The notes: generated by a model from the letters alone, not told the origin. Shown: positions 1,266 through 32,880, counted from the first letter of the stretch. The stretch is 64,000 nucleotides of DNA from Verrucomicrobiota bacterium (GCA_028873125.1 JAGWMQ010000002.1:15124-79123); one strand, 5' to 3'. Numbers and translations: made by a program.

Positions 1266-1589
1266 GAGCAGTTTTCCGCAAAAGTCCCCTTGCCAATTGA
1301 ACTTACAGGTTATAGCCTGAGGCCGGATGGTCGCCTTTGTGGCTCCCCTCTCCGGGTGATGACCGCCAGGTCGCCCGGGGCGGGCAAACCCGTTGAACTT
1401 TATCGCAAGCGGTTGAAGACCAGTCAGAAATAACTCGTTCGTGGATCCGGATTTCGTCGGGTCTCAACGAGAGCGATCAAATGGGGGAGCCTGAGACGAA
1501 CTTCTTGGAAGGCAGCTTGCGAATCCCCGAGCCTTGGGTTCACGTCTCGAGGATTTGGCGGAGGAGCGCCGGCGGAAACCTTGAACAAC

Positions 1590-4016
1590 ATGAAACGGCC
1601 GCTCGTGGCTGTGGTTGCATTTTATACGGCCGGTCTGCTGATCGCGCAGACCTTCCGACCCCCGCCTCTCGTCCTGTTGGCCGCTTTATCCGCCCTCCTC
1701 GTCCTGGCCCTGGTGCTGGAGACACTCCGTGTGTTGCTGATCGGGCCGATGCTGGTGCTGGCCGGAGCGAGCAACCTGCTCCTGCACACCGCAATCCTCT
1801 CCCCGAATGACCTGCGCAATTTAATTGGCAACGGGCCTGAAATCGTCGTCGTCCGCGGAACCCTGGTCCGGACGCCGCAAATCAAAATCTCCGAGCGCGA
1901 AGGCGAAGAGATCCAACACTCGCTCACCCTGGTCCGCGTCCGTGAAATTCGCCGCGGCGAAAAGTGGCGGCCGGCCGTGGGGAAAATCATGGTCTCCACG
2001 CCCGCGCCCCTCGCCGCCGATTTTTTCGCCGGCCAGGCCGCGGAAGTCTCCGGCGTTATCGCGCGGCCTTCCCCGCCGCTGGCCGAGGGACTTTTTGACT
2101 ACCGCGACTACCTCGCCACCCGGGGCATTTATTACCAGCTTAGAGCGGCCTCAACCAACGACTGGCGTCTGAGCCAACCGGTCTTGCCGAAGCCGCCGCT
2201 GACCGACCGCTTTTTGAACTGGTCCAGGCGCACGCTGGCCATCGGTCTGCCGGTGAAGGACGATCCCCTGCGCCTGCTGTGGGCCATGACGTTGGGCTGG
2301 CGCACGGCGTTCACCGGCGACATCGGCGACCCGTTTCTGCGCGCGGGCACGATGCATCTCTTCGCGATTGACGGGCTGCGTATCGCGCTGATTTCCGGGA
2401 TGCTGGTCGCGTTGTTGCGCGTGCTGCGTGTCGCGCGCGGGTGGTGCGGAGCCGTCGCCATTCCGGTGATCTGGTTTTACACCGCCGCGACGGGATGGGA
2501 ATCCTCGGCAATCCGGGCGGCGGTGATGATGACGCTTGTGCTGGGCGGCTGGGCGCTGAAACGGCCGGGCGACTTGATCAATTCCCTCGCCGCCGCCGCC
2601 TTCCTCATTTTGCTCTGGGAGCCACGCCAGCTTTTTGAGGCGAGCTTTCAATTGTCTTTCTTCGTCGTGCTGGTGATCGCCCTGTTGCTGCCGCCTTTGA
2701 ACCGGATTTGCGATCGCGCACTGCGGCACGACCCGCTGCTGCCGGACGAACTGGTTCCCCGATGGCGGCGCACCCTGACCGGCGCGCTGCGAATGCTGTC
2801 GCGCTACTTCGCTTTGTCACTGGCGGCGTGGGCCGGCTCGATTCCACTCTCGGCGCTCTATTTTCACCTGTTCAGCCCGATTTCGCCGCTGGCCAACGTC
2901 ATCGCCGTGCCGCTGGGCACCCTGGCGCTGATGAGCAACCTGGGCGCGCTGGTCTGCGGCGCCTGGCTTCCGGGGGCGACCGCACTGTTCAACCACGCCG
3001 CTTGGTTCTTCATGGTGGCGATGACGTGGGTCAGCCAGGTCTCCACGAGAATCCCCGGCTCGTTCTTTTACGTGCCCGCGCCTTCATGGATTTCCATCGC
3101 CCTTTACTACGGCGTCCTGATCGTCGCGTTGAGCGGCTGGCTGAACACGGCGCGGAGGAAAATCCTGGGCGCGGCGGTCTTGATTTGCATCGCCGCCGTT
3201 TATCTCTGCCGATGGGAAGGTTCGCGCGATGAAATCCAATTGACCGTCCTGCCGTTGAACGGCGGTCATTCGGTTATCGTGGACGCCACCGGGCGAAAAA
3301 ACGACTGGCTGGTGGACTGCGGCGACGAGAACGCGGTCAATTTCACGCTCAAAAATTTTCTGCGGGCGCAGGGCGTGAACCGGATTCTGCGCCTGGTCTT
3401 GACCGAAGGAAACCTGCGAAACTGCGGCGGCGCCAAATCCCTGGACGACCTCTTCGGCGTCGGAGAATTGTGGACCAGCGGGGCGAAATTCCGATCCCCC
3501 GCCTATCGCGCCGCCGTTTCCGCATTTGAAACCCCGCCCTCGCGCCGAAAAATTTTCGACTGCGGCGGCCAATCCGGCTGCTGGCGGGCGCTGTGGCCGG
3601 AAGCTACCATTCACGTGCCTCGCGCGGAGGACGCCGCGCTGGTGCTGATGGGAAATTTCCATGGCACCCGGGTTCTGCTGCTGTCGGATTTGGGACGCGC
3701 CGGACAGAGCGGGCTGATTTCGGCCGCGGAAGACTTGCGCGCGGATATCGTGATCGCCGGCCTGCCCACCGGGGGCGAACCGCTCTGCGACGCCCTGCTG
3801 GACGCGGTCCGGCCCCGGGCTGTGGTGATCGTGGATTCCGAATTTCCCGCCACGCGCCGGGCGAGCCGCGAGTTGAAGGAGCGTCTGGCGCAGCGGAAAA
3901 TTCCGGTCATTTACACTCGCGATTCCGGCGCGGCGACCCTTCTCGTGGACGACCACGGCCGGCAATTGCGGACAATGGATGGACAACAATTCACTTCCTC
4001 GGACCGATACCAGTGA
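1590..4016 (+). CDS. comEC: ComEC/Rec2 DNA internalization channel with C-terminal metallo-beta-lactamase-like domain
   Basis: Polytopic membrane protein of about 810 aa. It has the DYRDYLATRGIYYQL motif, a competence domain (HLFAIDGLRIALISG) and a C-terminal soluble domain. The ATG at 1590 lies just inside the TTG 1581 ORF start. Confidence 0.85.
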   Translation: MKRPLVAVVAFYTAGLLIAQTFRPPPLVLLAALSALLVLALVLETLRVLLIGPMLVLAGASNLLLHTAILSPNDLRNLIGNGPEIVVVRGTLVRTPQIKISEREGEEIQHSLTLVRVREIRRGEKWRPAVGKIMVSTPAPLAADFFAGQAAEVSGVIARPSPPLAEGLFDYRDYLATRGIYYQLRAASTNDWRLSQPVLPKPPLTDRFLNWSRRTLAIGLPVKDDPLRLLWAMTLGWRTAFTGDIGDPFLRAGTMHLFAIDGLRIALISGMLVALLRVLRVARGWCGAVAIPVIWFYTAATGWESSAIRAAVMMTLVLGGWALKRPGDLINSLAAAAFLILLWEPRQLFEASFQLSFFVVLVIALLLPPLNRICDRALRHDPLLPDELVPRWRRTLTGALRMLSRYFALSLAAWAGSIPLSALYFHLFSPISPLANVIAVPLGTLALMSNLGALVCGAWLPGATALFNHAAWFFMVAMTWVSQVSTRIPGSFFYVPAPSWISIALYYGVLIVALSGWLNTARRKILGAAVLICIAAVYLCRWEGSRDEIQLTVLPLNGGHSVIVDATGRKNDWLVDCGDENAVNFTLKNFLRAQGVNRILRLVLTEGNLRNCGGAKSLDDLFGVGELWTSGAKFRSPAYRAAVSAFETPPSRRKIFDCGGQSGCWRALWPEATIHVPRAEDAALVLMGNFHGTRVLLLSDLGRAGQSGLISAAEDLRADIVIAGLPTGGEPLCDALLDAVRPRAVVIVDSEFPATRRASRELKERLAQRKIPVIYTRDSGAATLLVDDHGRQLRTMDGQQFTSSDRYQ

Positions 4017-4126: not shown

Positions 4127-4273
4127 GGGGAGCACGCGCGTCTCGCGTGTGGGATTCGGCGTCGCGCCAAATCCATCGAGGGTTCGCAGGCCATAACGGT
4201 TTGGTGTGTGTCCCGCGCGGGCGATCCAGTCGGCGCGACGCCGACTGGTGCAGCCGAGACGGCCGCGCTCCTC
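4127..4273. repeat. REP-like inverted doublet (two about 44-nt units in opposite orientation)
   Basis: The unit at 4127-4170 is GGGGAGCACGCGCGTCTCGCGTG-N7-TCGGCGTCGCGCCAA. The reverse complement of 4230-4273 aligns to it (GAGGAGCGCGGCCGTCTCGGC...TCGGCGTCGCGCC). The same unit flanks the thrS insertion. Confidence 0.7.
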
Positions 4274-4497: not shown

Positions 4498-5472
4498 GTG
4501 AAAGCGGTGCGCAGGCCCAAACGTCGCTCAACCAGCGGCGATTACGGGGAGGATTTTGTGTCTTGTTCCGCATGTCCCGGCGCACAACTTCGCCCTCCGC
4601 CGCGTCTTGCCAGCCCTCGCATCGCGGCCTTCACGCTCGTCGAGCTTTTGGTGGTCATCGCGATCATCGCCATCTTGGCGGCGCTTCTGTTGCCAGCCCT
4701 GAATATGGCCAAGCAAAGAGCCTTGGGGGTTTTTTGCATGAACAATCTGAATCAGATCACATTGGGCTTCAAAATGTATCCCGACGACAATAGCGGTTGG
4801 TTCCCGATGAATCTGCCAATGCGGGGTGGCATCAGCCCAGCCGTCAGTTGGGTTGCCGGAAACATGGATTACGATTTTCCCAAGCAAAACACCAACTGGG
4901 CATTCCTCGCGGATCGGCGGTATGCCCAACTGGCGCCTTATGTCCAAAATCCGAAGGTCTATCGCTGCCCATCCGATCAAAGCACGCAATATCCGCATCA
5001 GCAAGGGCCGCCGCGCGTGCGCAGTTATGCAATGAACGAGGCCATCGGAGGCAGCTACTTTGGCCCTAACTACACAGAGTCTGTTACTGGGCTTGATGTC
5101 TTTCGACCTCTGCCGCCAGCTACACATTGGCAGATTCACACCAAAGAAGACCAGATGATCGGAGGGCTGGGGCCGGCGCAAATTTGGGTGCTGGTGGACG
5201 CGCATCCCGACACCATCTCTGTCGGGGTGTTCGACAGCGTGATGACCTCCGGCCCCTACACCTGGATTTGGGATGACCTGCCGGCCAAATGGCACGATAA
5301 TTCCTGTCCATTTTCCTTTGCCGACGGCCACGTGCAAATGCACCGCTGGCTGCGTCCCAATTTAATCCCCAATGTCACCTACACCGATCAGACGCACCGG
5401 TCGAATGGGGCCACGATACCGGACCCGGACGTGCCTTGGGTGTCTTCACACACCACGGTGGCCATGCCGTGA
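4498..5472 (+). CDS. Prepilin-type N-terminal cleavage/methylation domain protein, H-X9-DG family (DUF1559-like)
   Basis: Has the [24 protein letters not shown] pilin-like helix and the C-terminal [15 protein letters not shown] motif, which is H-X9-DG. The only canonical in-frame start is GTG 4498, giving a 44-aa leader. Confidence 0.85.
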   Translation: MKAVRRPKRRSTSGDYGEDFVSCSACPGAQLRPPPRLASPRIAAFTLVELLVVIAIIAILAALLLPALNMAKQRALGVFCMNNLNQITLGFKMYPDDNSGWFPMNLPMRGGISPAVSWVAGNMDYDFPKQNTNWAFLADRRYAQLAPYVQNPKVYRCPSDQSTQYPHQQGPPRVRSYAMNEAIGGSYFGPNYTESVTGLDVFRPLPPATHWQIHTKEDQMIGGLGPAQIWVLVDAHPDTISVGVFDSVMTSGPYTWIWDDLPAKWHDNSCPFSFADGHVQMHRWLRPNLIPNVTYTDQTHRSNGATIPDPDVPWVSSHTTVAMP

Positions 5473-5566: not shown

Positions 5567-6547
5567 GTGAAAGCGATCTGCAAGGTTAAAGGTTGCGCGT
5601 CCAGCGACGAAGCCGAGGCGGATTTTGCGTCTTGTTCCACGCGGCCCGGCGCACAGATTCGCTCTCCGCCGCGCCTTGCCGGCCCCCGCTTACCAGGGTT
5701 CACGCTCGTCGAGCTTTTGGTGGTCATCGCCATCATCGCCATCTTGGCGGCGCTTCTGCTGCCAGCCCTGAATACGGCCAAGCAAAGAGCCTTGGGCGTT
5801 TACTGCATGAACAATCTGAACCAGATCACATTGGGCGTGACAATCTATACCGATGACAATAACGGCTTTTTCCCGCTGAATCGGATAATGCAATTTCATA
5901 GCGATCCCGCCAAAGACTGGGTCGCCGGGAGCATGGGCTATGATTGGCCGGAGCAGAACACGAACAGCGCCTTGCTGCTGGACCCGCAGTATTCCCAAGT
6001 GGCGCCTTATGTTCAAAACCCAAAGCTCTATCGCTGTCCGTCCGATCACAGCACCCAATATCAGCATCAGCAAGGCCCGCCGCGCGTGCGCAGTTATACA
6101 ATGAGCGGCGCCATTGGAGACACATACTTCGAAAGCTCTTTCACGCTTCAGCACTTTCGGCCCCCGCCGCCAGCCAAACAGTGGCGGGTTTATACCAGAG
6201 AAGACCAAATGATCGGAGGGCTGGGGCCGGCGCAAATTTGGGTGCTGGTGGATGAGCATCCCGACACCATCAGTGACGGGCTCTTCGCCAGCGCCATGAC
6301 TTCCGGTCCTCGGACTTGGATTTGGTTTGACCTGCCGGCCAAATGGCACGACAACTCCTGCCCATTTTCCTTTGCCGACGGCCACGTGCAAATGCACCGC
6401 TGGTTGCGTCCCGATTTGATCCCCAATGTCACCTACACCTATTTGGCGGATCACCAAGACGAGGGTAGCTCATGGTTCGACTATGACAAAGTGCCGGACC
6501 CAGACGTGCCTTGGGTGTCTTCACACACAACCGTGCCTGGCCCATAA
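5567..6547 (+). CDS. Prepilin-type N-terminal cleavage/methylation domain protein, H-X9-DG family (tandem paralog)
   Basis: Has the same architecture as 4498-5472 and is roughly three quarters identical by eye. The cleavage context is PG|FTLVELL and the motif is [15 protein letters not shown]. The start is GTG 5567. Confidence 0.85.
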
Positions 6548-9552: not shown

Positions 9553-10608
9553 ATGGCTGAAATCATGGAATTGCCGGTGCGCCAGGCGGACGACTTGCAA
9601 GTCCGCCCGCCGATCACGCGGCTCCAGTTCGAGGCGCTGGCGAAGGAAGTTTTCGCGCTCAAGAAGCAGCTCAACGCGGTCATCCTGGCGCACAATTACC
9701 AGGTGCCCGAAATCCAGGACGTGGCCGATTATGTCGGCGACTCGCTCGGGCTGTCGCGGCAGGCGGCCCGCACGGACGCGGACGTGATCGTCTTTTGCGG
9801 CGTGCATTTCATGGCCGAGACGGCCAAGATCCTGAATCCGAACAAGATTGTCGTGCTGCCGGACAAGGAGGCGGGCTGTTCGCTCGAAGAAAGCTGCCCG
9901 GCGGACCGGCTGGCGGCGCTCCAGAAGACCAACCCGAACTTCTGGACGGTGGCCTACATCAATTGCAGCGCCGCGGTCAAGGCGCTGTGCGACGTGATTT
10001 GCACCAGCGGCAACGCCGAGAAGATCGTCAACGCCGCGCCGCCGGACCGGGACATTCTCTTCATCCCCGACGAAAATCTCGGCCAGTGGGTGATGGAGCA
10101 GACGGGGCGGCCGATGACGTTGTGGCGCGGCCATTGTTACGCGCACGTCGAGTTCCGGCGCGAGGCGCTGCTGCAACTTAAAGAAAAATTCCCGGACGCG
10201 AAGGTCGTGGTCCATCCCGAAAGCCTGCGCGAGGTGCGCGACCTGGCGGACGCGGTTCGCTCGACGGAGGGGATGATTTCGTTCTGCAGGAACGATCCGG
10301 CGGAAAAATTCATCGTGGTGACCGAGTCGGGCATCATCCACCGGATGCGCAAGGAATGTCCGGGGAAGACGTTTTTATGCGCGCCGACGTTCGACGTGAT
10401 GCAGATGCCCGGCGACCATTGCCGCTGCAGCGAATGCAAATACATGAAGTTGAACACGCTGGAAAAGGTGCGCGATTGCATGAAGCGTCTTGCGCCGCGC
10501 ATCGAGTTGCCGCCGGAGATTCTGAGGCGCGGGCGGCTGCCGATCGAGAGGATGCTGGAAATTTCGGCGCGGACAACTTCCGTTGGGCAGACGGCGGTTT
10601 CCAATTGA
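9553..10608 (+). CDS. nadA: Quinolinate synthase
   Basis: Has ILAHNYQVPEIQDVADYVGDSL and FCGVHFMAETAKILNP, plus a Cys-rich C-terminal region. The ATG at 9553 (MAEIMEL) is preferred over the upstream ORF start. Confidence 0.9.
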   Translation: MAEIMELPVRQADDLQVRPPITRLQFEALAKEVFALKKQLNAVILAHNYQVPEIQDVADYVGDSLGLSRQAARTDADVIVFCGVHFMAETAKILNPNKIVVLPDKEAGCSLEESCPADRLAALQKTNPNFWTVAYINCSAAVKALCDVICTSGNAEKIVNAAPPDRDILFIPDENLGQWVMEQTGRPMTLWRGHCYAHVEFRREALLQLKEKFPDAKVVVHPESLREVRDLADAVRSTEGMISFCRNDPAEKFIVVTESGIIHRMRKECPGKTFLCAPTFDVMQMPGDHCRCSECKYMKLNTLEKVRDCMKRLAPRIELPPEILRRGRLPIERMLEISARTTSVGQTAVSN

Positions 10609-10617
10609 ATCCGGGCC

Positions 10618-10827
10618 ATGATCATTGACCAAATCAGACAACGGTTGGAAAATGGCTTTCAGCCGTTCACCACTCACTTGACGAACGGCAAAAAATTCAG
10701 CGTCCCGCATCGTGATTTGATTGCTTAGACCCGGAAAGTGGTCGTGGTCATTGACGAACGCGACGTTTCCCACACCCTCAATCCGCCGCACATCGTCTCC
10801 ATCGAAGACGCCCTCCGCCAAGAGTAG
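10618..10827 (+). pseudogene. Small conserved hypothetical ORF (69 codons) interrupted by an in-frame TAG at 10726-10728
   Basis: Reads MIIDQIRQRLENGFQPFTTHLTNGKKFSVPHRDLIA-TAG-TRKVVVVIDERDVSHTLNPPHIVSIEDALRQE. Both halves are in the same frame. It resembles a small protein family common in PVC and cyanobacterial genomes, recalled from memory. Confidence 0.4.
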
Positions 10828-28638: not shown

Positions 28639-28829
28639 GGAGGCAAGGTATTCGAGGCACCCGCAAATGACATTCAAAATGTCGTCCACGCCGGGCCGCG
28701 AAAACCTCATTCCACGATACCTTTGCGCGCCAAAGCGTGGGCCTCGTGATGGCGGTCAGAACGTCCGCCATGAATTCCGCCTCCGACTAAACGCGAGTTC
28801 GCCGTGGGGCAGGCTACAGCATGCCGTAT

Positions 28830-28848
28830 CGCAGACAGGCTGTCTGCG
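28830..28848 (-). terminator. Perfect 8-bp stem hairpin 8 nt downstream of the thrS stop (no U-tract)
   Basis: CGCAGACA-GGC-TGTCTGCG. Terminator function is uncertain because no T-run follows on the minus strand. Confidence 0.25.
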
Positions 28849-28855
28849 AACGTCG

Positions 28856-31411
28856 CTACGCCCGCCGTTCTTTGATGGCGGCCAAAATCTCCGCCACCGC
28901 CTCGCCCTTCGGCTTCGCGCCGAGATCGCCCTTGCCGTGGACGCGCACCGAAACGTTCCCGGCTTCCATGTCGCGCGCGCCGATGACGAGCATGGTGTGG
29001 ACTTTTGCCGTCTCGGCATCCTGGATCTTGCCGTTGATTTTGTTGGACGAAAAATCCGCCTCGACGCGGACGAAATTGGCGCGCAGATCGTTCACGACGG
29101 TTCTTGCGTAAGCGACCAGCTTCTCGTCGTCGCCGACGGTCAGCACGCGCACCTGTTCCGGTGCGAGCCAGAGCGGGAAATTGCCGGCGTAATGCTCGAT
29201 GAGGAAGCCGATGAACCGCTCGTGCGTGCCCAGCGGCGCGCGGTGGATGCACAACGGCGTCTTGTCCGTGTTGTCCTTGTCGCGATAGACCAGGCCGAAA
29301 CGCTTGGGCACGGCGAAGTCCACCTGGTTGGTCGCCAGCGTGAATTCGCGGCCGATGACGCTCCAGACCTGCACGTCAATCTTCGGCCCGTAAAACGCCG
29401 CCTCGTTCGGCACCTCCACGTAGGGAATCTTCGAATCAATCAACACCTTGCGGACCAGGTCTTCCGTCTGCTTCCACAACTCCGGCTCGTTGACGAACTT
29501 GGCGTTGTCGCCGGTCAGGCGCGACGGGTCGTGCGTGCTGAAGCGCATGACGTATTTCTCGATGCCGAAAATCTTGAAATACTTGAGATACATCTCGTTC
29601 ACCGCGTTGAACTCGGCGGCAAATTGCTCCGGCGTGCAATAAATGTGCGCATCATTCATATTTAAGGAGCGGACGCGCATAAGGCCGAACAATTCGCCCG
29701 ACTGCTCGTAGCGGTAGCAGGTGCCGTATTCCGCGAGGCGCAGCGGCAAATCGCGGTAACTGCGCGGCTCGGCCGCAAAAATGCGGTGGTGATGCGGGCA
29801 GTTCATGGCTTTGAGGTAATAGCGCTCGACGTTCGCGCTCCCGGCACTGTTCTGCGATGATTGGGGAGCGCGCGCGTCCCGCGTGCCCTCCTCGGCGTCG
29901 CGCCAAGGAGCGTCAGGCGTCCAAAGCCACGGATAACTCTCATCCTGTTTGGCAACACCCGCGTCCCACGGATTTCGGCAAATGTAATGGAACTTTTCTT
30001 CCAAGTCCGCCCCGCCTCGCATAATTCGATCAAACGATTCTTTCTCCCAAACGGGATTGCCTTTCGTCAATTGCGCCTTGTTGATTTCGTGAGCCGTAAA
30101 GGATTTGATGGAATGCAGGAGTTCGGACAACGGCCAGAAAACAGGCTTGCCTTCCTTATCCTGTTCCTTGATTTGCGGTTCGAAAAGCAAGTGAACGTGG
30201 TCCGGCATCACGCAGGCGGCGTAAAGTTCGTAGCGGCGCTGCTCGCGCATGAACAACAAGCTTTTTAACACAATGTCACGGGCTTCCGGTGATAATTGCT
30301 TCCGTTCCTGGGTGCCGAACGTCACCATGTATTTGGCCCACGGACGCTCGAAGTGCGGCAAGCGGCGTTTGGAGTATTTCGCATCTGATTGGGTTTCTGG
30401 GAGCACACGCGTCTCGCCTGTTGCGGCGGGCGCCGCGCCCGGCGCTTCGGTGGCTGTCGCGGCGTGCGAAGAGGTTTCCGGCGCGACGCCGGAAACGGCA
30501 GGCGGGACGCCCGCGCTCCCCTTTTCACCGCGTTCGCGCAATTTCATCGGCGGGAACATACTCTCCGCGTACAGAATCGGCAGATGGCCGCTCGTTAAAT
30601 ACATTTTCTCCCGCGCGATGTGCGGCGTCTTGACGCGCACGTAGCCGGCGGCGAATTCCGTTTCCTTCGCCAGCTTTTCCAGCTCTTCCAGAATCGCCGT
30701 GCCCTTGGGCAGCCACAACGGCAGGCCCGGCCCGACAAATTCCGTGTCAATCGCGAACAGCCCCATCTCCGCGCCGATCTTGCGGTGGTCGCGGCGCTTC
30801 GCTTCTTCGAGCATCTTGAAATACTCATCCAACTGCGTCTTGTTCTTGAACGCCGTGCCGTAGATGCGCTGGAGCTGCGGGTTGCGCTCGTCGCCCTTGT
30901 AGTAGGCGCTGGCCACGCTGGTGAGCTTGAACGCGCCGATGTTGCCGGTGCGCATCACGTGCGGCCCGGCGCACAGGTCCAAGAAATCGCCGTTCTTAAA
31001 ATAGGTGATTGGCTCGCCTTCGGGAATGGCTTCGAGGTTGCCGAGCTTGAACTTGCTGGGATTGCCCGGACGCTCGCCCAAGCCGCCGAGCCGGCCGCTC
31101 TCGGAATCCTTGATGGCCTGCTCACGCGTGACGACGATTTTCTCGAAGGGATGGTTCGCCTTGATTTCCTTTTTCATCTCCGCCTCGATGGCGGGGAAAT
31201 CCTCCGGCGAGATGCGGTGCTTGAGGTCCACGTCGTAATAAAATCCGGTTTCGACCGGCGGCCCGGCGGCGAATTGGGCGTCCGGCCACAGGCGCAGGAT
31301 GGCCGTGGCCATGACGTGGGCGCACGAGTGCCGGATGCGGTCCAACTCGGTCATCTTCGCGCGGTCGTCGAGCGTCTTGCGGTCCTTCAAATTCTCTTGT
31401 TCGGCGGACAC
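28856..31411 (-). CDS. thrS: Threonyl-tRNA synthetase carrying a 226-codon in-frame insertion in the catalytic domain; lacks the N-terminal TGS domain
   Basis: Has the editing-domain motif HSCAHVMA. The catalytic core runs GHLPILYAESMFPPMKL...[insert]...YYLKAMNCPHHHRIF, which includes the zinc-site Cys, and an anticodon-binding C-terminus follows. The ORF is continuous over 851 aa. Confidence 0.9.
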   Translation of the reverse strand: MSAEQENLKDRKTLDDRAKMTELDRIRHSCAHVMATAILRLWPDAQFAAGPPVETGFYYDVDLKHRISPEDFPAIEAEMKKEIKANHPFEKIVVTREQAIKDSESGRLGGLGERPGNPSKFKLGNLEAIPEGEPITYFKNGDFLDLCAGPHVMRTGNIGAFKLTSVASAYYKGDERNPQLQRIYGTAFKNKTQLDEYFKMLEEAKRRDHRKIGAEMGLFAIDTEFVGPGLPLWLPKGTAILEELEKLAKETEFAAGYVRVKTPHIAREKMYLTSGHLPILYAESMFPPMKLRERGEKGSAGVPPAVSGVAPETSSHAATATEAPGAAPAATGETRVLPETQSDAKYSKRRLPHFERPWAKYMVTFGTQERKQLSPEARDIVLKSLLFMREQRRYELYAACVMPDHVHLLFEPQIKEQDKEGKPVFWPLSELLHSIKSFTAHEINKAQLTKGNPVWEKESFDRIMRGGADLEEKFHYICRNPWDAGVAKQDESYPWLWTPDAPWRDAEEGTRDARAPQSSQNSAGSANVERYYLKAMNCPHHHRIFAAEPRSYRDLPLRLAEYGTCYRYEQSGELFGLMRVRSLNMNDAHIYCTPEQFAAEFNAVNEMYLKYFKIFGIEKYVMRFSTHDPSRLTGDNAKFVNEPELWKQTEDLVRKVLIDSKIPYVEVPNEAAFYGPKIDVQVWSVIGREFTLATNQVDFAVPKRFGLVYRDKDNTDKTPLCIHRAPLGTHERFIGFLIEHYAGNFPLWLAPEQVRVLTVGDDEKLVAYARTVVNDLRANFVRVEADFSSNKINGKIQDAETAKVHTMLVIGARDMEAGNVSVRVHGKGDLGAKPKGEAVAEILAAIKERRA
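29825..29906. repeat. REP-like doublet at the 3' (gene-sense) edge of the thrS insert
   Basis: The full unit at 29863-29906 is 36/44 identical to 4127-4170: the first 23 nt have 2 mismatches and the block TCGGCGTCGCGCCAA is identical. A degenerate inverted half-unit lies at 29826-29842. Confidence 0.7.
29826..30520 (-). mobile_element. RAYT-like (IS200/COG1943 HUH-Y1 transposase) domain with REP-like flanks, embedded in frame in thrS
   Basis: The insert translates as KRRLPHFERPWAKYMVTF...ELYAACVMPDHVHLLFEP (HUH motif)...SIKSFTAHEINK...VWEKESFDRIMR...FHYICRNPWDAGVA...YPWLW (Tyr motif). Two hand-counted 60-nt lines inside it are 45-50% GC, against about 67% in a neighbouring thrS line. Confidence 0.75.
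30399..30521. repeat. REP-like inverted doublet at the 5' (gene-sense) edge of the thrS insert
   Basis: 30399-30418 reads GGGAGCACACGCGTCTCGCC. The reverse complement of 30478-30521 reads GGGGAGCGCGGGCGTCCCGCC...CGGCGTCGCGCCGG, and its core is 19/20 identical to 29863-29882. Confidence 0.7.
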
Positions 31412-31572
31412 GACAAAAGCTTAACCACAAACCGGCAGGGAAACCAAGCGGAACAGAAGCCGCCGACATCGCCGTGTGGTTTTCCGAAATCCGGCGTGTC
31501 GGCTATGGGACACCCTGTTACGGCGAAAACGGCGCCCACTTCAAACGGCAAGGCGAAAGCGCTTTTAGAGAT

Positions 31573-32880
31573 TCAAGGCGCCGCCGGCGTGGCCTGGACG
31601 CGCATCTGTTGGGGGCCGTTGCTCAGCGGATAATTCACCCATGAGCCGGCGGAAGTGTCTGCGTAACCCCCCAGCGATCCGAATCCGATCCAGGGCGTGG
31701 AAAGGGTGTAGGCCCAGTTGACCAAGCCGTTGTCGGCGACAGTCGTGGGTGCGGCCACCACATAATAACCCCCGGAGGGGAGCGGAATGGGCGCGGTGGG
31801 GACAAAATCCACATACCCCGTGTTGTTGACCATTTGCGACGCCACCACGGCGATTTTGTTGGTCGGGTTGTTGTCCGCGCCGGCATGCCAGATGCTGACC
31901 GTCACGCTTCCGCTGCCGGAAGTCGGTTCCAACATTAAAGTGACCCGATCCAGCGTATAATTTCCGGTGGGCAGCGCAAACTCCTGGGCGACGAGAAAAT
32001 CGTTGGAAGTGGAATCGTTGCCGATGGGACCATAATAACCGGCGGTCGGCTGCTCCAAGTTGTCCACGGCAAAACGTTGGCGCAGCCGGAAGAACCGCGC
32101 CCGGTCCGGCCAGAAGTTGGTGAGGGTGTAGTTGCCGGCAACCAGGGCCGGGGGGTTGGTCACCGACAGCCAAGCCGGCGTGGCGGGATTGGTCGCGCTG
32201 ACGAGGGCGAAGGTGTTCAACAGCGCCGGCCAGGAAAGCACCGTGGCGCCGTTCCGGGAATGGATGCCCACAGTCGCCACCGGCGTGGCCTGCACGCTCA
32301 TCTGTTGCGGGGTCCCGAAGGCATAACTGGTCCACGAACCGCCGCGGGTGTCGGCATAACCGTCGAGCGCCCCCGAGCCGGTCCAATTCGTGGAGGCAGT
32401 GTAGGCCCAGCTCACCAACCCGCTGTCCGCGGCGGTCTTCGGCGCGGCCACCACATAATAAAGGCCCGGCAACAGCGTGATGTTGGTGGCCGGAATAAAA
32501 TCCGCGTTGCCCGCGTTGGCCACCAGCCGCGTCGCCACCACGGCGATTTCATTGGTCGGATTGATGTCCGGCCCGACGTTCCAGATGCTGACGGTAATGT
32601 TCCCCCCGCCGCTGGTCGGGCTGAGCGACAGGGTGACTTTGTCAAGACGGTAAGGCGTCAGGCCCGAGGGCACCGTAAATTCCTGGGCGACGAGAAAGTC
32701 ATTCGTGTTGGCATCACTGCCGATGGGGCCATAATACCCTTCGGTGGGCTGGGTCAAGTTGTCCACCAGCACATCGGCGCGCACTGCCGCGGCGCCCATT
32801 ATCCCCAGGCAAAAAAGGGTGGTCCTGATGCAAGTGTCCTTCACAGCGGCATCTTTAGCCAGGTTCCGGTGCGGTTTCAA
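31573..32880 (-). CDS. Secreted protein with two tandem copies of an about 180-aa domain (unknown function)
   Basis: The repeats are VDNLTQPTEGYYGPIGSDANTNDFLVAQEF...QQMSVQATP and VDNLEQPTAGYYGPIGNDSTSNDFLVAQEF...QQMRVQATP. A signal-like segment TTLFCLGIMGAAAVRA precedes them. The start (TTG 32880 or GTG 32844) is uncertain. Confidence 0.6.
   Translation of the reverse strand: MKPHRNLAKDAAVKDTCIRTTLFCLGIMGAAAVRADVLVDNLTQPTEGYYGPIGSDANTNDFLVAQEFTVPSGLTPYRLDKVTLSLSPTSGGGNITVSIWNVGPDINPTNEIAVVATRLVANAGNADFIPATNITLLPGLYYVVAAPKTAADSGLVSWAYTASTNWTGSGALDGYADTRGGSWTSYAFGTPQQMSVQATPVATVGIHSRNGATVLSWPALLNTFALVSATNPATPAWLSVTNPPALVAGNYTLTNFWPDRARFFRLRQRFAVDNLEQPTAGYYGPIGNDSTSNDFLVAQEFALPTGNYTLDRVTLMLEPTSGSGSVTVSIWHAGADNNPTNKIAVVASQMVNNTGYVDFVPTAPIPLPSGGYYVVAAPTTVADNGLVNWAYTLSTPWIGFGSLGGYADTSAGSWVNYPLSNGPQQMRVQATPAAP

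What the first reader, a model, noticed from the sequence alone, without database searches (positions are those of the whole stretch)
29825..30521. The thrS insert has REPtron architecture: inverted doublets of a 44-nt REP-like unit on both sides, read through as protein linkers
Both flanks of the RAYT-like core (about 29957-30379) carry REP-like units. In gene orientation the upstream flank has a unit at 30521-30478 and an oppositely oriented unit at 30399-30443. The downstream flank has a full unit at 29863-29906 and a degenerate inverted half-unit at 29842-29826. The unit cores (GGGGAGCGCGGGCGTCCCGC) are 19/20 identical between 30502-30521 (reverse complement) and 29863-29882. RAYT genes flanked by their cognate REP/BIME repeats are the defining REPtron layout. 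Here the repeats are inside an ORF and are translated, for example as GSAGVPPAVSG, GETRVLPE and GTRDARAPQ. This suggests the whole element landed, or was captured, without breaking the frame.
Basis: seen in the sequence. Interest (0 to 1): 0.7.

Follow-up and report, generated by a model that had tools for sequence, protein, structure and literature searches.

The report
REP-flanked RAYT transposase nested inside thrS
An essential gene (threonyl-tRNA synthetase) carries, in frame, a REP-associated transposase domain bounded by its own palindromic repeats, and related uncultured bacteria show the same cassette in ThrRS and AlaRS, which suggests a previously undescribed way for such an element to persist.

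Summary
All four units lie at the stated coordinates. The 20-mer core matches three times in the window against 0.08 expected. A fifth and sixth unit form an intergenic doublet at 4127-4273.

Each unit is a 5' GGGGAGC tag followed by two hairpins. The second hairpin shows covariation across 100 units.

The core between the repeats is a RAYT-type Y1 HUH domain with both catalytic motifs intact. It is under strong purifying selection (dN/dS about 0.05). The repeat-encoded linkers evolve neutrally as protein but are conserved as DNA.

The element is neither unique nor recent:
- 57 ThrRS sequences examined and about 70 AlaRS sequences examined from Verrucomicrobiota metagenomes carry the same REP-RAYT-REP cassette in frame. 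At least two AlaRS frames carry two RAYT cores.
- Fragments show it in MetH-, CarB- and RecG-like proteins. A distant RAYT relative sits in a Planctomycetota open frame that I read as FabZ-like.
- A close relative (94% DNA identity) keeps a single REP unit at the site.
- Embedded RAYTs are polyphyletic.

My reading is a promoter-less, start-less and stop-less REPtron, expressed as an internal domain of an essential protein. Nuclease activity and mobility are inferred, not shown. I found no published description.

The parts
28856..31411 (-). thrS ORF, 851 aa, continuous through the insert
   Evidence: ORF list. Pfam domains tRNA_SAD, Y1_Tnp, tRNA-synt_2b and HGTP_anticodon. It aligns to S. aureus ThrRS 1NYQ on both sides of the insert.
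30522..31411 (-). ThrRS N-terminal part (aa 1-297), ending ...SMFPPMKLRERGEK
   Evidence: Alignment to 1NYQ residues 70-325. Conserved in relatives with and without the insert.
30478..30521 (-). REP unit U1, forward in gene orientation and outermost on the left. It is read as GSAGVPPAVSGVAPETS.
   Evidence: Folds as two hairpins, -20.2 kcal/mol, z -3.75. One mismatch in about 51 nt to the P0005 orthologue although the genes are only 86% identical.
30399..30443 (+). REP unit U2, inverted relative to the gene. It forms a tail-to-tail doublet with U1 and is read as ...APAATGETRVLPE.
   Evidence: Weaker fold, z -1.0. Present in P0001 and absent in P0005.
29909..30382 (-). RAYT (TnpA-REP-like Y1 HUH) core, aa 344-501. 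HUH motif PDHVH at 30191-30205. Tyr motif YICRNP at 29969-29986.
   Evidence: Pfam PF01797. HUH and Y..NP align to E. coli TnpA-REP 4ER8. dN/dS 0.03-0.07. AF2 pLDDT 80-92 for residues 355-500. GC3 is 0.65 against 0.84-0.86 in the host parts.
29863..29906 (+). REP unit U3, inverted relative to the gene and the partner of U1 as a terminal inverted repeat. It is read as RDAEEGTRDARAPQ.
   Evidence: Two-hairpin fold. One mismatch in about 53 nt to P0005.
29826..29842 (-). U4, the remnant of a second forward REP unit, read as GSAN
   Evidence: The full unit is present at this place in P0001 and P0005. The window has an in-frame loss of about 45 nt. No hairpin remains.
28856..29825 (-). ThrRS C-terminal part, from VERYYLKAMNCPHHH to the stop (catalytic core and anticodon-binding domain)
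   Evidence: Pfam. Alignment to 1NYQ residues 327-638.
4127..4273 (.). Intergenic REP doublet of the same family: U5 at 4127-4170 (+) and U6 at 4273-4230 (-), tail to tail
   Evidence: Both fold as two hairpins, z -2.86 and -4.04. It lies between the stop of ORF 1581-4016 and the next gene, which starts near 4498.

Best explanation
The thrS insert is a nested REPtron: a REP-RAYT-REP cassette with no promoter, start codon or stop codon of its own. It lies in frame in a surface loop of the ThrRS catalytic domain, just upstream of the zinc-binding NCP motif.

Shown:
- The cassette is delimited by inverted, structured REP units. Each unit is a GGGGAGC tag plus two hairpins.
- The RAYT core keeps its HUH and Tyr motifs and is under strong purifying selection.
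- The REP-encoded segments behave as DNA elements, with low synonymous divergence and dN/dS near 1.
- The same cassette occupies the same loop in many ThrRS genes and two sites in AlaRS genes.
- An allele with only one REP unit exists in a close relative.

Inferred:
- The whole ORF is translated into one polypeptide. In it the RAYT is an autonomous domain tethered by flexible, low-complexity REP-encoded linkers, so ThrRS still works.
- The tethered RAYT is an active single-strand DNA nuclease/ligase. It recognises the tag-plus-hairpin units and maintains or moves the dispersed REP doublets and its own cassette.
- Nesting in an essential, constitutively expressed gene supplies expression. It also protects the cassette, because any deletion that is not precise and in frame is lethal. 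This is the evolutionary logic of an intein, but without splicing.
- A loop that already holds a REP unit is a preferred landing site, which would explain repeated colonisation of the same loop.
For: Architecture.

Repeat family outside the gene: the intergenic doublet, and more than 120 stretches in Verrucomicrobiota, Acidobacteriota and Planctomycetota MAGs, many as +/- pairs 30-170 nt apart. Seven of those 120 stretches also hold a RAYT homologue.

Structure of the unit: hairpin-2 positions 5-10 are paired in 80-94% of 100 units against 47-60% with shuffled partners. Hairpin-1 stems covary between dialects.

Generality:
- 57 ThrRS-embedded cores were extracted from the proteins and the loci.
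- All 80 best metagenome loci for this RAYT clade are embedded in long frames: 13 carry ThrRS motifs. Of the other 67, 44 carry the AlaRS motif and 7 motif-negative frames sampled all scored as AlaRS in Pfam.
- In 72 of 78 loci the core is flanked by inverted REP units at z > 5.
- At least two AlaRS frames hold two RAYT cores (L173 read in full). A motif count flags seven, but two of those (L155, L156) look spurious.
- Fragments show the cassette in MetH-, CarB- and RecG-like proteins. A distant RAYT homologue (38% identity) lies in a Planctomycetota frame that I read as FabZ-like. That host was not checked against Pfam, and no REP head lies within about 2 kb of it.

Selection: dN/dS is 0.12 for the host, 0.03-0.07 for RAYT and 0.5-1.0 for the linkers. 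Linker dS is 0.2-0.5, below the host's 0.44-1.0. HUH and Tyr motifs are both kept in 56/57 ThrRS-embedded, 64/70 AlaRS-embedded and 86/98 separately called cores.

Dispensability and turnover:
- The P0046 allele has exactly one REP unit at 94.4% DNA identity to the RAYT-bearing P0005 allele, in a syntenic locus.
- The number of REP units differs between orthologues, always in multiples of 3 nt.
- Embedded RAYTs fall into at least 4 groups mixed with AlaRS-embedded and separately called ones. By my reading, these groups carry different REP dialects.

No signals of its own: in 85/105 separately called homologues the ORF reads through the REP peptide. In L204 the Met lies outside the inverted repeat.

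Linkers and fold: AF2 gives pLDDT 80-92 for the RAYT domain and below 30 for the linkers.

Read-through capacity: REP units are stop-free in 91-96% of cases per frame against 78-82% for shuffles.
Against: - No biochemical or expression evidence exists. Translation of the full-length fusion, nuclease activity and REP mobility are all inferred.
- Openness of the frame is forced by the essential C-terminal half of ThrRS, so it does not by itself show that the RAYT is used.
- The dispersed repeat population looks small. There is one intergenic doublet in 64 kb here and very few heads in 362 kb flanking the embedded loci. A large REPIN population serviced by this RAYT is therefore unproven.
- Whether these genomes have a second, insert-free thrS was not tested.
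- The RAYT core has a different codon composition and a higher dS than the host. This fits turnover, but weaker codon selection could also explain it.
- The neighbour-joining trees carry no support values.
Confidence: 0.6

Rival explanations
1. Exaptation. The HUH domain has been recruited for a host function tied to aminoacyl-tRNA synthetases, for example binding single-stranded nucleic acid or coupling translation to DNA metabolism. On this view the REP units are leftover linkers with no present DNA-level role.
For: All 80 best loci are ThrRS or AlaRS, two synthetases that share the tRNA_SAD editing module. Purifying selection on the domain is very strong. The domain is retained over deep divergence.
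Against: - The REP segments are conserved as DNA (low dS) while their protein sequence drifts.
- The same cassette occurs in MetH-, CarB- and RecG-like proteins and as separate ORFs. A distant relative lies in a FabZ-like frame.
- Close relatives do without it. They carry a solo REP, an empty loop or unrelated inserts at 83-90% backbone identity.
- Embedded RAYTs are polyphyletic and carry different flanking dialects.
Confidence: 0.15
2. Inert passenger. The cassette is a dead transposon remnant. It is kept only because it sits in an essential gene, where most deletions are lethal.
For: Frame preservation is forced by the host gene. In-frame decay is visible in the truncated U4 of the window and in indels of REP units. 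One ThrRS copy (P0028) has lost the second His of the HUH motif.
Against: - dN/dS of the RAYT core is 0.03-0.07, lower than that of ThrRS itself.
- The catalytic motifs are kept in 56/57 ThrRS and 64/70 AlaRS copies.
- Precise in-frame loss is possible and does occur (P0046), so retention is not merely mechanical.
Confidence: 0.07
3. Removal before function. The insert is taken out to give a normal ThrRS, either at the RNA level (the 42-nt inverted repeats pair and the loop is processed), at the protein level (intein-like), or at the DNA level in a fraction of cells (RAYT-catalysed excision between the direct REP copies).
For: U1 and U3 are 86% complementary over 42 nt and would bring the junctions together in RNA or single-stranded DNA. 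Solo-REP alleles look like products of excision between the direct copies U1 and U4.
Against: - There is no Rfam family (intron or other) in 28700-31700.
- There is no Hint/intein domain and there are no Cys/Ser...His-Asn junction residues.
- If the insert were spliced, its frame and the frame of every linker indel would not need to match the host. Yet all of about 130 embedded copies examined are in frame.
- Excision at the DNA level would be irreversible for that cell line.
Confidence: 0.08
4. Artefact. The fusion results from chimeric assembly or a sequencing error that joined a transposase to thrS, or the gene is a pseudogene.
For: Only that the relatives retrieved are metagenome-derived, and that the window's exact protein is not in the collection.
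Against: The same architecture appears in independent JGI, ENA and NCBI assemblies. P0005 alone was seen on 15 contigs, with conserved synteny. Both ThrRS halves are under purifying selection.
Confidence: 0.01

Closest known systems
REPtron / TnpA-REP (RAYT) of E. coli and relatives (structure 4ER8). This rests on my own knowledge of Nunvar 2010, Ton-Hoang 2012 and Messing 2012, and on the classification in PMC6006769.
   Same: A Y1 HUH domain with a Y..NP tyrosine motif. The gene is flanked by inverted copies of a structured repeat that is also dispersed in the genome. Transposase lineages and repeat dialects covary.
   Different: The known ones are free-standing genes with extragenic GTAG-tagged single-hairpin REPs. 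Here the cassette has no start or stop of its own, lies in frame inside an essential gene, and its repeats carry a GGGGAGC tag and two hairpins. Sequence similarity to 4ER8 is marginal (E = 0.048).
REPIN-RAYT systems of Pseudomonas and Enterobacteria (Bertels and Rainey; PMC3116915, PMC5581495)
   Same: Inverted REP doublets. Vertically persistent RAYTs under purifying selection, each with its own repeat family.
   Different: Those RAYTs are separate genes. Those papers mention no fusion or in-frame nesting. The copy number of the repeat per genome is unknown here and appears modest.
In-frame intragenic palindromic repeats: Rickettsia RPEs, intragenic GTAG/CGTC REPs (PMC3733652), and REPs inserted in frame inside subclass 2.4 tnpA-REP genes (PMC6006769)
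   Same: Palindromic repeats are translated as short peptide inserts in functional proteins, presumably in loops. The solo-REP ThrRS allele (P0046) is exactly this.
   Different: Those cases involve the short repeat only. Here the transposase itself is carried into the host protein between the repeats.
Inteins with homing endonucleases
   Same: A selfish nuclease is nested in frame in conserved, essential genes and is protected from loss by the host gene's essentiality. Particular sites are occupied repeatedly.
   Different: There is no Hint domain, no splicing residues and no evidence of protein splicing. The insert is expected to stay in the mature protein.
IS200/IS605 elements and IStrons
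   Same: Y1 HUH transposase, recognition of subterminal hairpins, single-strand DNA chemistry, seamless excision. IStrons also avoid harming the host gene.
   Different: IS200 TnpA has a Y...Q motif and carries its own expression signals. IStrons escape by RNA splicing through a group I intron, and none is detected here.

Membership tests
RAYT / TnpA-REP (Y1 HUH transposase, Pfam PF01797) | Profile match above the curated threshold | tested here: met
   PF01797 scores 28.9 bits against a cutoff of 23, aa 360-460. Embedded AlaRS copies score 29-41 bits.
RAYT / TnpA-REP (Y1 HUH transposase, Pfam PF01797) | HUH motif and a single catalytic Tyr in a Y..NP motif (as opposed to the Y...Q of IS200) | tested here: met
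   PDHVH (aa 403-407) and YICRNP (aa 476-481) align to PEHMH and YIYINP of 4ER8. Both are kept in 56/57 ThrRS-embedded copies.
RAYT / TnpA-REP (Y1 HUH transposase, Pfam PF01797) | HUH fold | tested here: inconclusive
   AF2 gives a confident beta-alpha-beta domain for residues 355-500 (pLDDT 80-92). The structure search of the whole model returned only ThrRS entries.
RAYT / TnpA-REP (Y1 HUH transposase, Pfam PF01797) | Sequence- and structure-specific cleavage of single-stranded REP DNA | not testable with these tools
   Needs biochemistry.
REP / REPIN repeats | Short palindromic unit forming a hairpin, with a conserved unpaired 5' tag | tested here: met
   The units fold into two hairpins. 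Stems covary. GGGGAGC is the conserved 5' tag across dialects.
REP / REPIN repeats | Canonical GTAG (or CGTC) tag | tested here: not met
   The tag is GGGGAGC. CGTC occurs in the hairpin apex, not as an unpaired foot (definition from PMC3733652).
REP / REPIN repeats | Many dispersed, mostly extragenic copies per genome, often as inverted doublets | tested here: inconclusive
   Doublets are seen in the window and in many MAG stretches.
REPtron | RAYT coding sequence flanked on both sides by its cognate REP units in inverted orientation | tested here: met
   U1/U3 in the window. 72/78 related loci. The flanking dialect changes with the RAYT lineage.
REPtron | Stand-alone gene in extragenic surroundings | tested here: not met
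   The coding sequence is continuous with ThrRS on both sides.
Intein | Hint domain, N-terminal Cys/Ser/Thr, and C-terminal His-Asn followed by Cys/Ser/Thr | tested here: not met
   No Hint or intein family appears in the Pfam scan. The junctions read ...GEK|GSAG... and ...SAN|VERYY....
Self-splicing intron / IStron | Group I or group II intron RNA | tested here: not met
   No Rfam match at E <= 1 in 28700-31700.

The most novel reading that the evidence does not exclude
RAYT-REP systems of Verrucomicrobiota, and possibly other PVC bacteria, have evolved a distinct lifestyle. The cassette has no signals of its own. Its terminal REP hairpins double as stop-free, flexible peptide linkers. It therefore lives in frame inside permissive loops of essential enzymes (ThrRS, AlaRS, and others) and is expressed as an internal domain of the host protein. 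That would make it a non-splicing functional analogue of inteins. It would also be the first case known to me of a bacterial transposase that persists by being part of a housekeeping polypeptide. A single AlaRS can carry two such systems with different repeat dialects.
Probability: 0.5. Interest if true: 0.88.

Novelty: new variant of a known kind. Interest (0 to 1): 0.8.

Why it matters
- RAYTs are the commonest domesticated transposases of bacteria, yet what they do for REPs or for the host, and why they persist vertically, is still debated. Nesting in essential genes would give a concrete persistence mechanism and a natural experiment, because alleles with the cassette, with a solo REP and with an empty loop exist among close relatives.
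- It shows that a full 160-aa nuclease domain with two repeat-encoded tethers can be carried in a loop about ten residues from the ThrRS zinc site. This bears on protein-insertion tolerance and on the evolution of synthetase insertion domains.
- It explains many "transposase" or "aaRS-related, partial" names given to these genes. It also suggests that surveys which discarded unusually long RAYT proteins as fusions or errors (PMC6006769) removed a real class.
- The tag-plus-two-hairpin repeat adds a REP type outside the GTAG/CGTC scheme.

Tried and rejected
- Exact look-up of the window's ThrRS found nothing, so the source genome and its total REP and RAYT content could not be examined.
It shows distribution but gives no per-genome counts.
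- Counting repeat dialects outside the host ORFs of the related loci gave too few hits for a real association test: 0 in 114 kb for dialect a, 3 of 5 on the diagonal for b, and 7 of 11 for c.
- The AF2 model of the full fusion from a 20-sequence alignment was poor overall (mean pLDDT 53.5). The domain geometry relative to the ThrRS dimer cannot be read from it. The PDB structure search returned only ThrRS.
- A generic scan of the window for "GGAGC plus any 7-bp hairpin" was not above chance (17 hits against 11.3 expected). Only the five full units stand out.
- The protein search with the RAYT core did not list the ThrRS fusions, so it under-represents long proteins. The DNA-level scan corrected this.
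- Intein, intron and pseudogene readings were considered and rejected (see the rival explanations).
- Six literature searches and three papers read found no report of a RAYT embedded in a synthetase.
Full report
**Observation.** Window 28856-31411 (-) is one uninterrupted 851-aa ORF. Pfam finds the ThrRS domains tRNA_SAD, tRNA-synt_2b and HGTP_anticodon. Between them lies a Y1_Tnp domain (PF01797) at aa 360-460, scoring above its gathering score.

- U1 at 30521-30478 (-)
- U2 at 30399-30443 (+)
- U3 at 29863-29906 (+)
- U4, a remnant, at 29842-29826 (-)

The supporting numbers are as follows.
- The two best cores are 19/20 identical.
- With up to 3 mismatches the 20-mer occurs 3 times in the window against 0.08 expected, and 0 of 100 shuffles reach that number.
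- U1 and U3 form a 42-nt, 86% complementary inverted repeat around the core, with z = 17.7 against shuffles.
- The quoted peptides are in the ORF.

The third 20-mer match led to an intergenic doublet, U5 at 4127-4170 (+) and U6 at 4273-4230 (-). It has the same tail-to-tail geometry as U2/U1. The unit is therefore not peculiar to thrS. No other RAYT is encoded in the window.

**Anatomy of the unit.** Read together with related copies, each unit is a 5' tag GGGGAGC followed by two hairpins.
- Hairpin 1 has 7-8 bp and a TCY loop.
- Hairpin 2 has 10 bp, with apex GGCG-TCN-CGCC and a variable outer stem.

As single-stranded DNA, U1, U2, U3, U5 and U6 all give this two-hairpin fold. Their z-scores are -3.75, -1.0, -0.56, -2.86 and -4.04. 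The U4 remnant does not fold.

In 100 units from many genomes, hairpin-2 positions 5-10 use several pair types. They are paired in 80-94% of units against 47-60% when partners are shuffled. Pairing falls to the null level at positions 11-12. Between repeat dialects the hairpin-1 stems also change on both sides: GCACGCG/CGCGTGC, GCGCCCG/CGGGCGC and GCGACCG/CGGTCGC.

The tag is not the GTAG or CGTC of published REP super-families.

**Distribution of the repeat.** Most come from Verrucomicrobiota, Acidobacteriota and Planctomycetota MAGs. Many are +/- pairs 30-170 nt apart. Seven of these 120 stretches also encode a RAYT homologue. In L016, L043, L064 and L118 it is bracketed by heads, whereas in L012 and L054 the heads lie kilobases away. 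Per-genome counts could not be obtained.

**The core.** The 164-aa core matches E. coli TnpA-REP (4ER8) only weakly (E = 0.048). The match nevertheless aligns PDHVH to the HUH motif and YICRNP to the catalytic Tyr motif. The signature DHVH / WE / Y..NP is of the class 2 (TnpA-REP) kind in the classification of PMC6006769. AF2 predicts residues 355-500 as a confident beta-alpha domain (pLDDT 80-92). The flanking linkers score below 30. The rest of the model is poor because the alignment was shallow.

**Where it sits.** The insert lies between residues 325 and 327 of S. aureus ThrRS. That is between ...MFPPM.L.E and E.YYLKxMNCPHH, a few residues before the zinc-binding Cys.

In close relatives, at 83-90% backbone identity, this loop varies widely:
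- it is short (15-20 aa); or
- it holds one translated REP unit; or
- it holds any of many mutually unrelated 55-106-aa helical inserts.

The loop is evidently permissive.

**Not unique.** The full-length search found dozens of 800-860-aa ThrRS proteins from Verrucomicrobiota metagenomes with the same insert. Their identity to the query runs from 87% down to 66%. JGI's pipeline auto-named them [quoted passage not shown].

A DNA-level scan of JGI metagenomes with a RAYT-core alignment found 540 relatives. In all 80 best loci the RAYT is embedded in a long open frame.
- 13 frames carry ThrRS motifs.
- The other 67 lack them. Of these, 44 carry the AlaRS motif YDTYGFP, and all 7 motif-negative frames that I sampled scored as AlaRS in Pfam.
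- The insert occupies two AlaRS sites, one after ...EKLSGKKYGSTLP and one after ...FNEE..A.LLG.
- At least two AlaRS frames hold two RAYT cores. L173, which I read in full, holds two RAYT modules with different linker peptides plus a REP-only insert, and L166 is also flagged. The motif count flags seven frames, but two of them (L155, L156) look spurious.

Fragments show the same linker-RAYT-linker module in MetH-like, CarB and RecG-like proteins. A distant RAYT homologue (38% identity) sits in a Planctomycetota open frame that I read as FabZ-like from its sequence. That host was not checked against Pfam, and no REP head lies within about 2 kb of that copy.

In 72 of 78 embedded loci the core is flanked by inverted REP units beginning with GGGGAGC (z > 5).

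**Selection.** Nei-Gojobori estimates among ThrRS orthologues give these values.

| Region | dN/dS | dS |
|---|---|---|
| ThrRS parts | about 0.12 | 0.44-1.0 |
| RAYT core | 0.03-0.07 | higher, 1.3-2.5, partly saturated |
| REP-encoded linkers | 0.5-1.0 | unusually low, 0.2-0.5 |

U1 and U3 differ from their P0005 counterparts at 1 position in about 50, although the genes are only 86% identical. The linkers are therefore constrained as DNA and not as protein. The RAYT is constrained as protein.

HUH and Tyr motifs are both kept in 56/57 ThrRS-embedded cores, 64/70 AlaRS-embedded cores and 86/98 separately called cores. The RAYT core also has a distinct composition, with GC3 of 0.65 against 0.84-0.86 in the host parts.

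**Turnover.** P0005 carries REP-forward, RAYT, REP-reverse, a 28-nt spacer and REP-forward. P0046 has exactly one REP-forward unit. The two lie in syntenic loci and their thrS genes are 94.4% identical. The single unit of P0046 resembles the left copy at its 5' end and the right copy at its 3' end. This could be recombination or RAYT-catalysed excision between the direct copies. It could also be a pre-existing REP that served as a landing site. The data do not distinguish these.

P0001 has the window's full layout with U4 intact. The window has lost about 45 nt of U4 in frame. P0005 lacks U2.

In a neighbour-joining tree of 225 RAYT cores, the ThrRS-embedded ones fall into at least four groups interleaved with AlaRS-embedded and separately called ones. 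By my reading of the inserts and inverted repeats, these groups use different flanking peptides and dialects, for example GSARVSRAVSG, RGAHAPSRAVSG and GRVGVPPAV. These peptides also show that different reading frames of the same kind of unit are used. I take this as repeated colonisation of the same loop or exchange between hosts. The trees carry no support values.

**No signals of its own.** Among about 200-aa homologues called as separate genes, 85/105 read through a REP-like peptide between the start codon and the core, and 62/105 read through one after it. In L204 the inverted repeats (GGGGAGC...GCTCCCC) span 10060-10637. The ATG lies 59 nt outside the left end and the stop 17 nt outside the right end. 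The ORF is wedged between two operon genes with gaps of 2-3 nt. REP units are stop-free in 91-96% of cases in each of the six frames against 78-82% for shuffles. That sample includes intragenic copies, so it is biased.

**Explanation.** I conclude that the insert is a nested REPtron. The architecture, its generality and the selection pattern are shown above. Three points are inferred:
- The polypeptide is made and is functional as ThrRS.
- The tethered domain cleaves and joins REP DNA.
- Residence in an essential gene is what gives the cassette expression and protection from loss.

**Rivals.**
- *Exaptation for a synthetase-linked role.* Suggested by the ThrRS and AlaRS bias. Weakened by the other hosts, the DNA-level conservation of the repeats and dispensability in close relatives.
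- *Inert passenger.* Contradicted by a dN/dS of about 0.05.
- *Removal by splicing.* There is no Rfam family in the region and no intein features. Frame is kept in every copy and at every linker indel.
- *Artefact.* Excluded by recurrence in independent assemblies.

**Prior knowledge.** REPtrons, REPIN-RAYT systems and in-frame intragenic REPs (including Rickettsia RPEs) are known, as are REPs inserted in frame inside tnpA-REP genes. Six full-text searches found no paper describing a RAYT embedded in an aminoacyl-tRNA synthetase or other housekeeping gene. The main RAYT survey does not mention fusions. The TnpA-Y1 classification paper states that unexpectedly long proteins were discarded as gene fusions or annotation errors. 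Within the limits of that library, this appears to be undescribed. I class it as a new variant of a known kind.

Noticed in passing
ThrRS loop corresponding to window 29826-30544; proteins P0031-P0120: ThrRS proteins that are 83-93% identical elsewhere carry mutually unrelated 55-106-aa, mostly helical inserts at exactly the loop that holds the RAYT cassette. At least a dozen insert families appear. Such hypervariability in an essential enzyme is unexplained. It may reflect repeated insertion and replacement at a REP-marked site.
   Followed up: partly
L173:484-4629 (AlaRS, 1382 aa); also L064 (Limisphaerales MAG JANOBC010000309.1): One AlaRS gene can hold two RAYT cassettes with different repeat dialects plus a REP-only insert. 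The AlaRS frames in this set reach 1398 aa.
   Followed up: partly
L012:5622-6935 (Planctomycetota MAG JAHBYA010000004.1): A more distant RAYT-like domain (38% identity to the thrS core) lies in an open frame that I read as FabZ-like from its sequence. The host identity was not checked against Pfam, and the nearest REP heads lie about 2 kb away. If confirmed, nesting extends beyond Verrucomicrobiota and beyond synthetases.
   Followed up: no
Hairpin 2 of REP units: window 4150-4175, 4225-4250, 29884-29910, 30474-30496; loci L001-L120: The outer 6 bp of hairpin 2 differ from copy to copy yet stay complementary. The copies that flank ThrRS-embedded RAYTs share one stem, GTTTCC/GGAAAC. Whether the variable stems arise by selection on structure or by a templated process at insertion, such as an inverted duplication of target sequence, is unexplained.
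   Followed up: partly
window 29909-30382 compared with the rest of thrS: The RAYT core has GC 0.525 and GC3 0.65. The surrounding thrS codons have GC about 0.61 and GC3 0.84-0.86. Its synonymous divergence between orthologues is 2-3 times that of the host, even though both lie on one mRNA.
   Followed up: partly
window 4498-5472 (+) and 5567-6547 (+): Two adjacent paralogous ORFs share a near-identical 5' segment that I read as [20 protein letters not shown]. By my own knowledge this resembles a prepilin-type N-terminal signal. The shared segment turned up as twin hits in the hairpin scan.
   Followed up: no
P0101 (892 aa ThrRS-RAYT): One ThrRS-RAYT fusion also has a C-terminal extension with a PF07927 hit, which is HicA toxin by my recollection. 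It may be a read-through into a downstream toxin gene or an assembly or gene-calling effect.
   Followed up: no
L204:9030-11620 (contig_6455 of ERZ25039539): A RAYT called as a free-standing gene is wedged, with 2-3-nt gaps, between an Amuc_1100-like gene and the next gene of a type IV pilus-like cluster. It may have split a former single gene or may be translationally coupled within the operon.
   Followed up: partly
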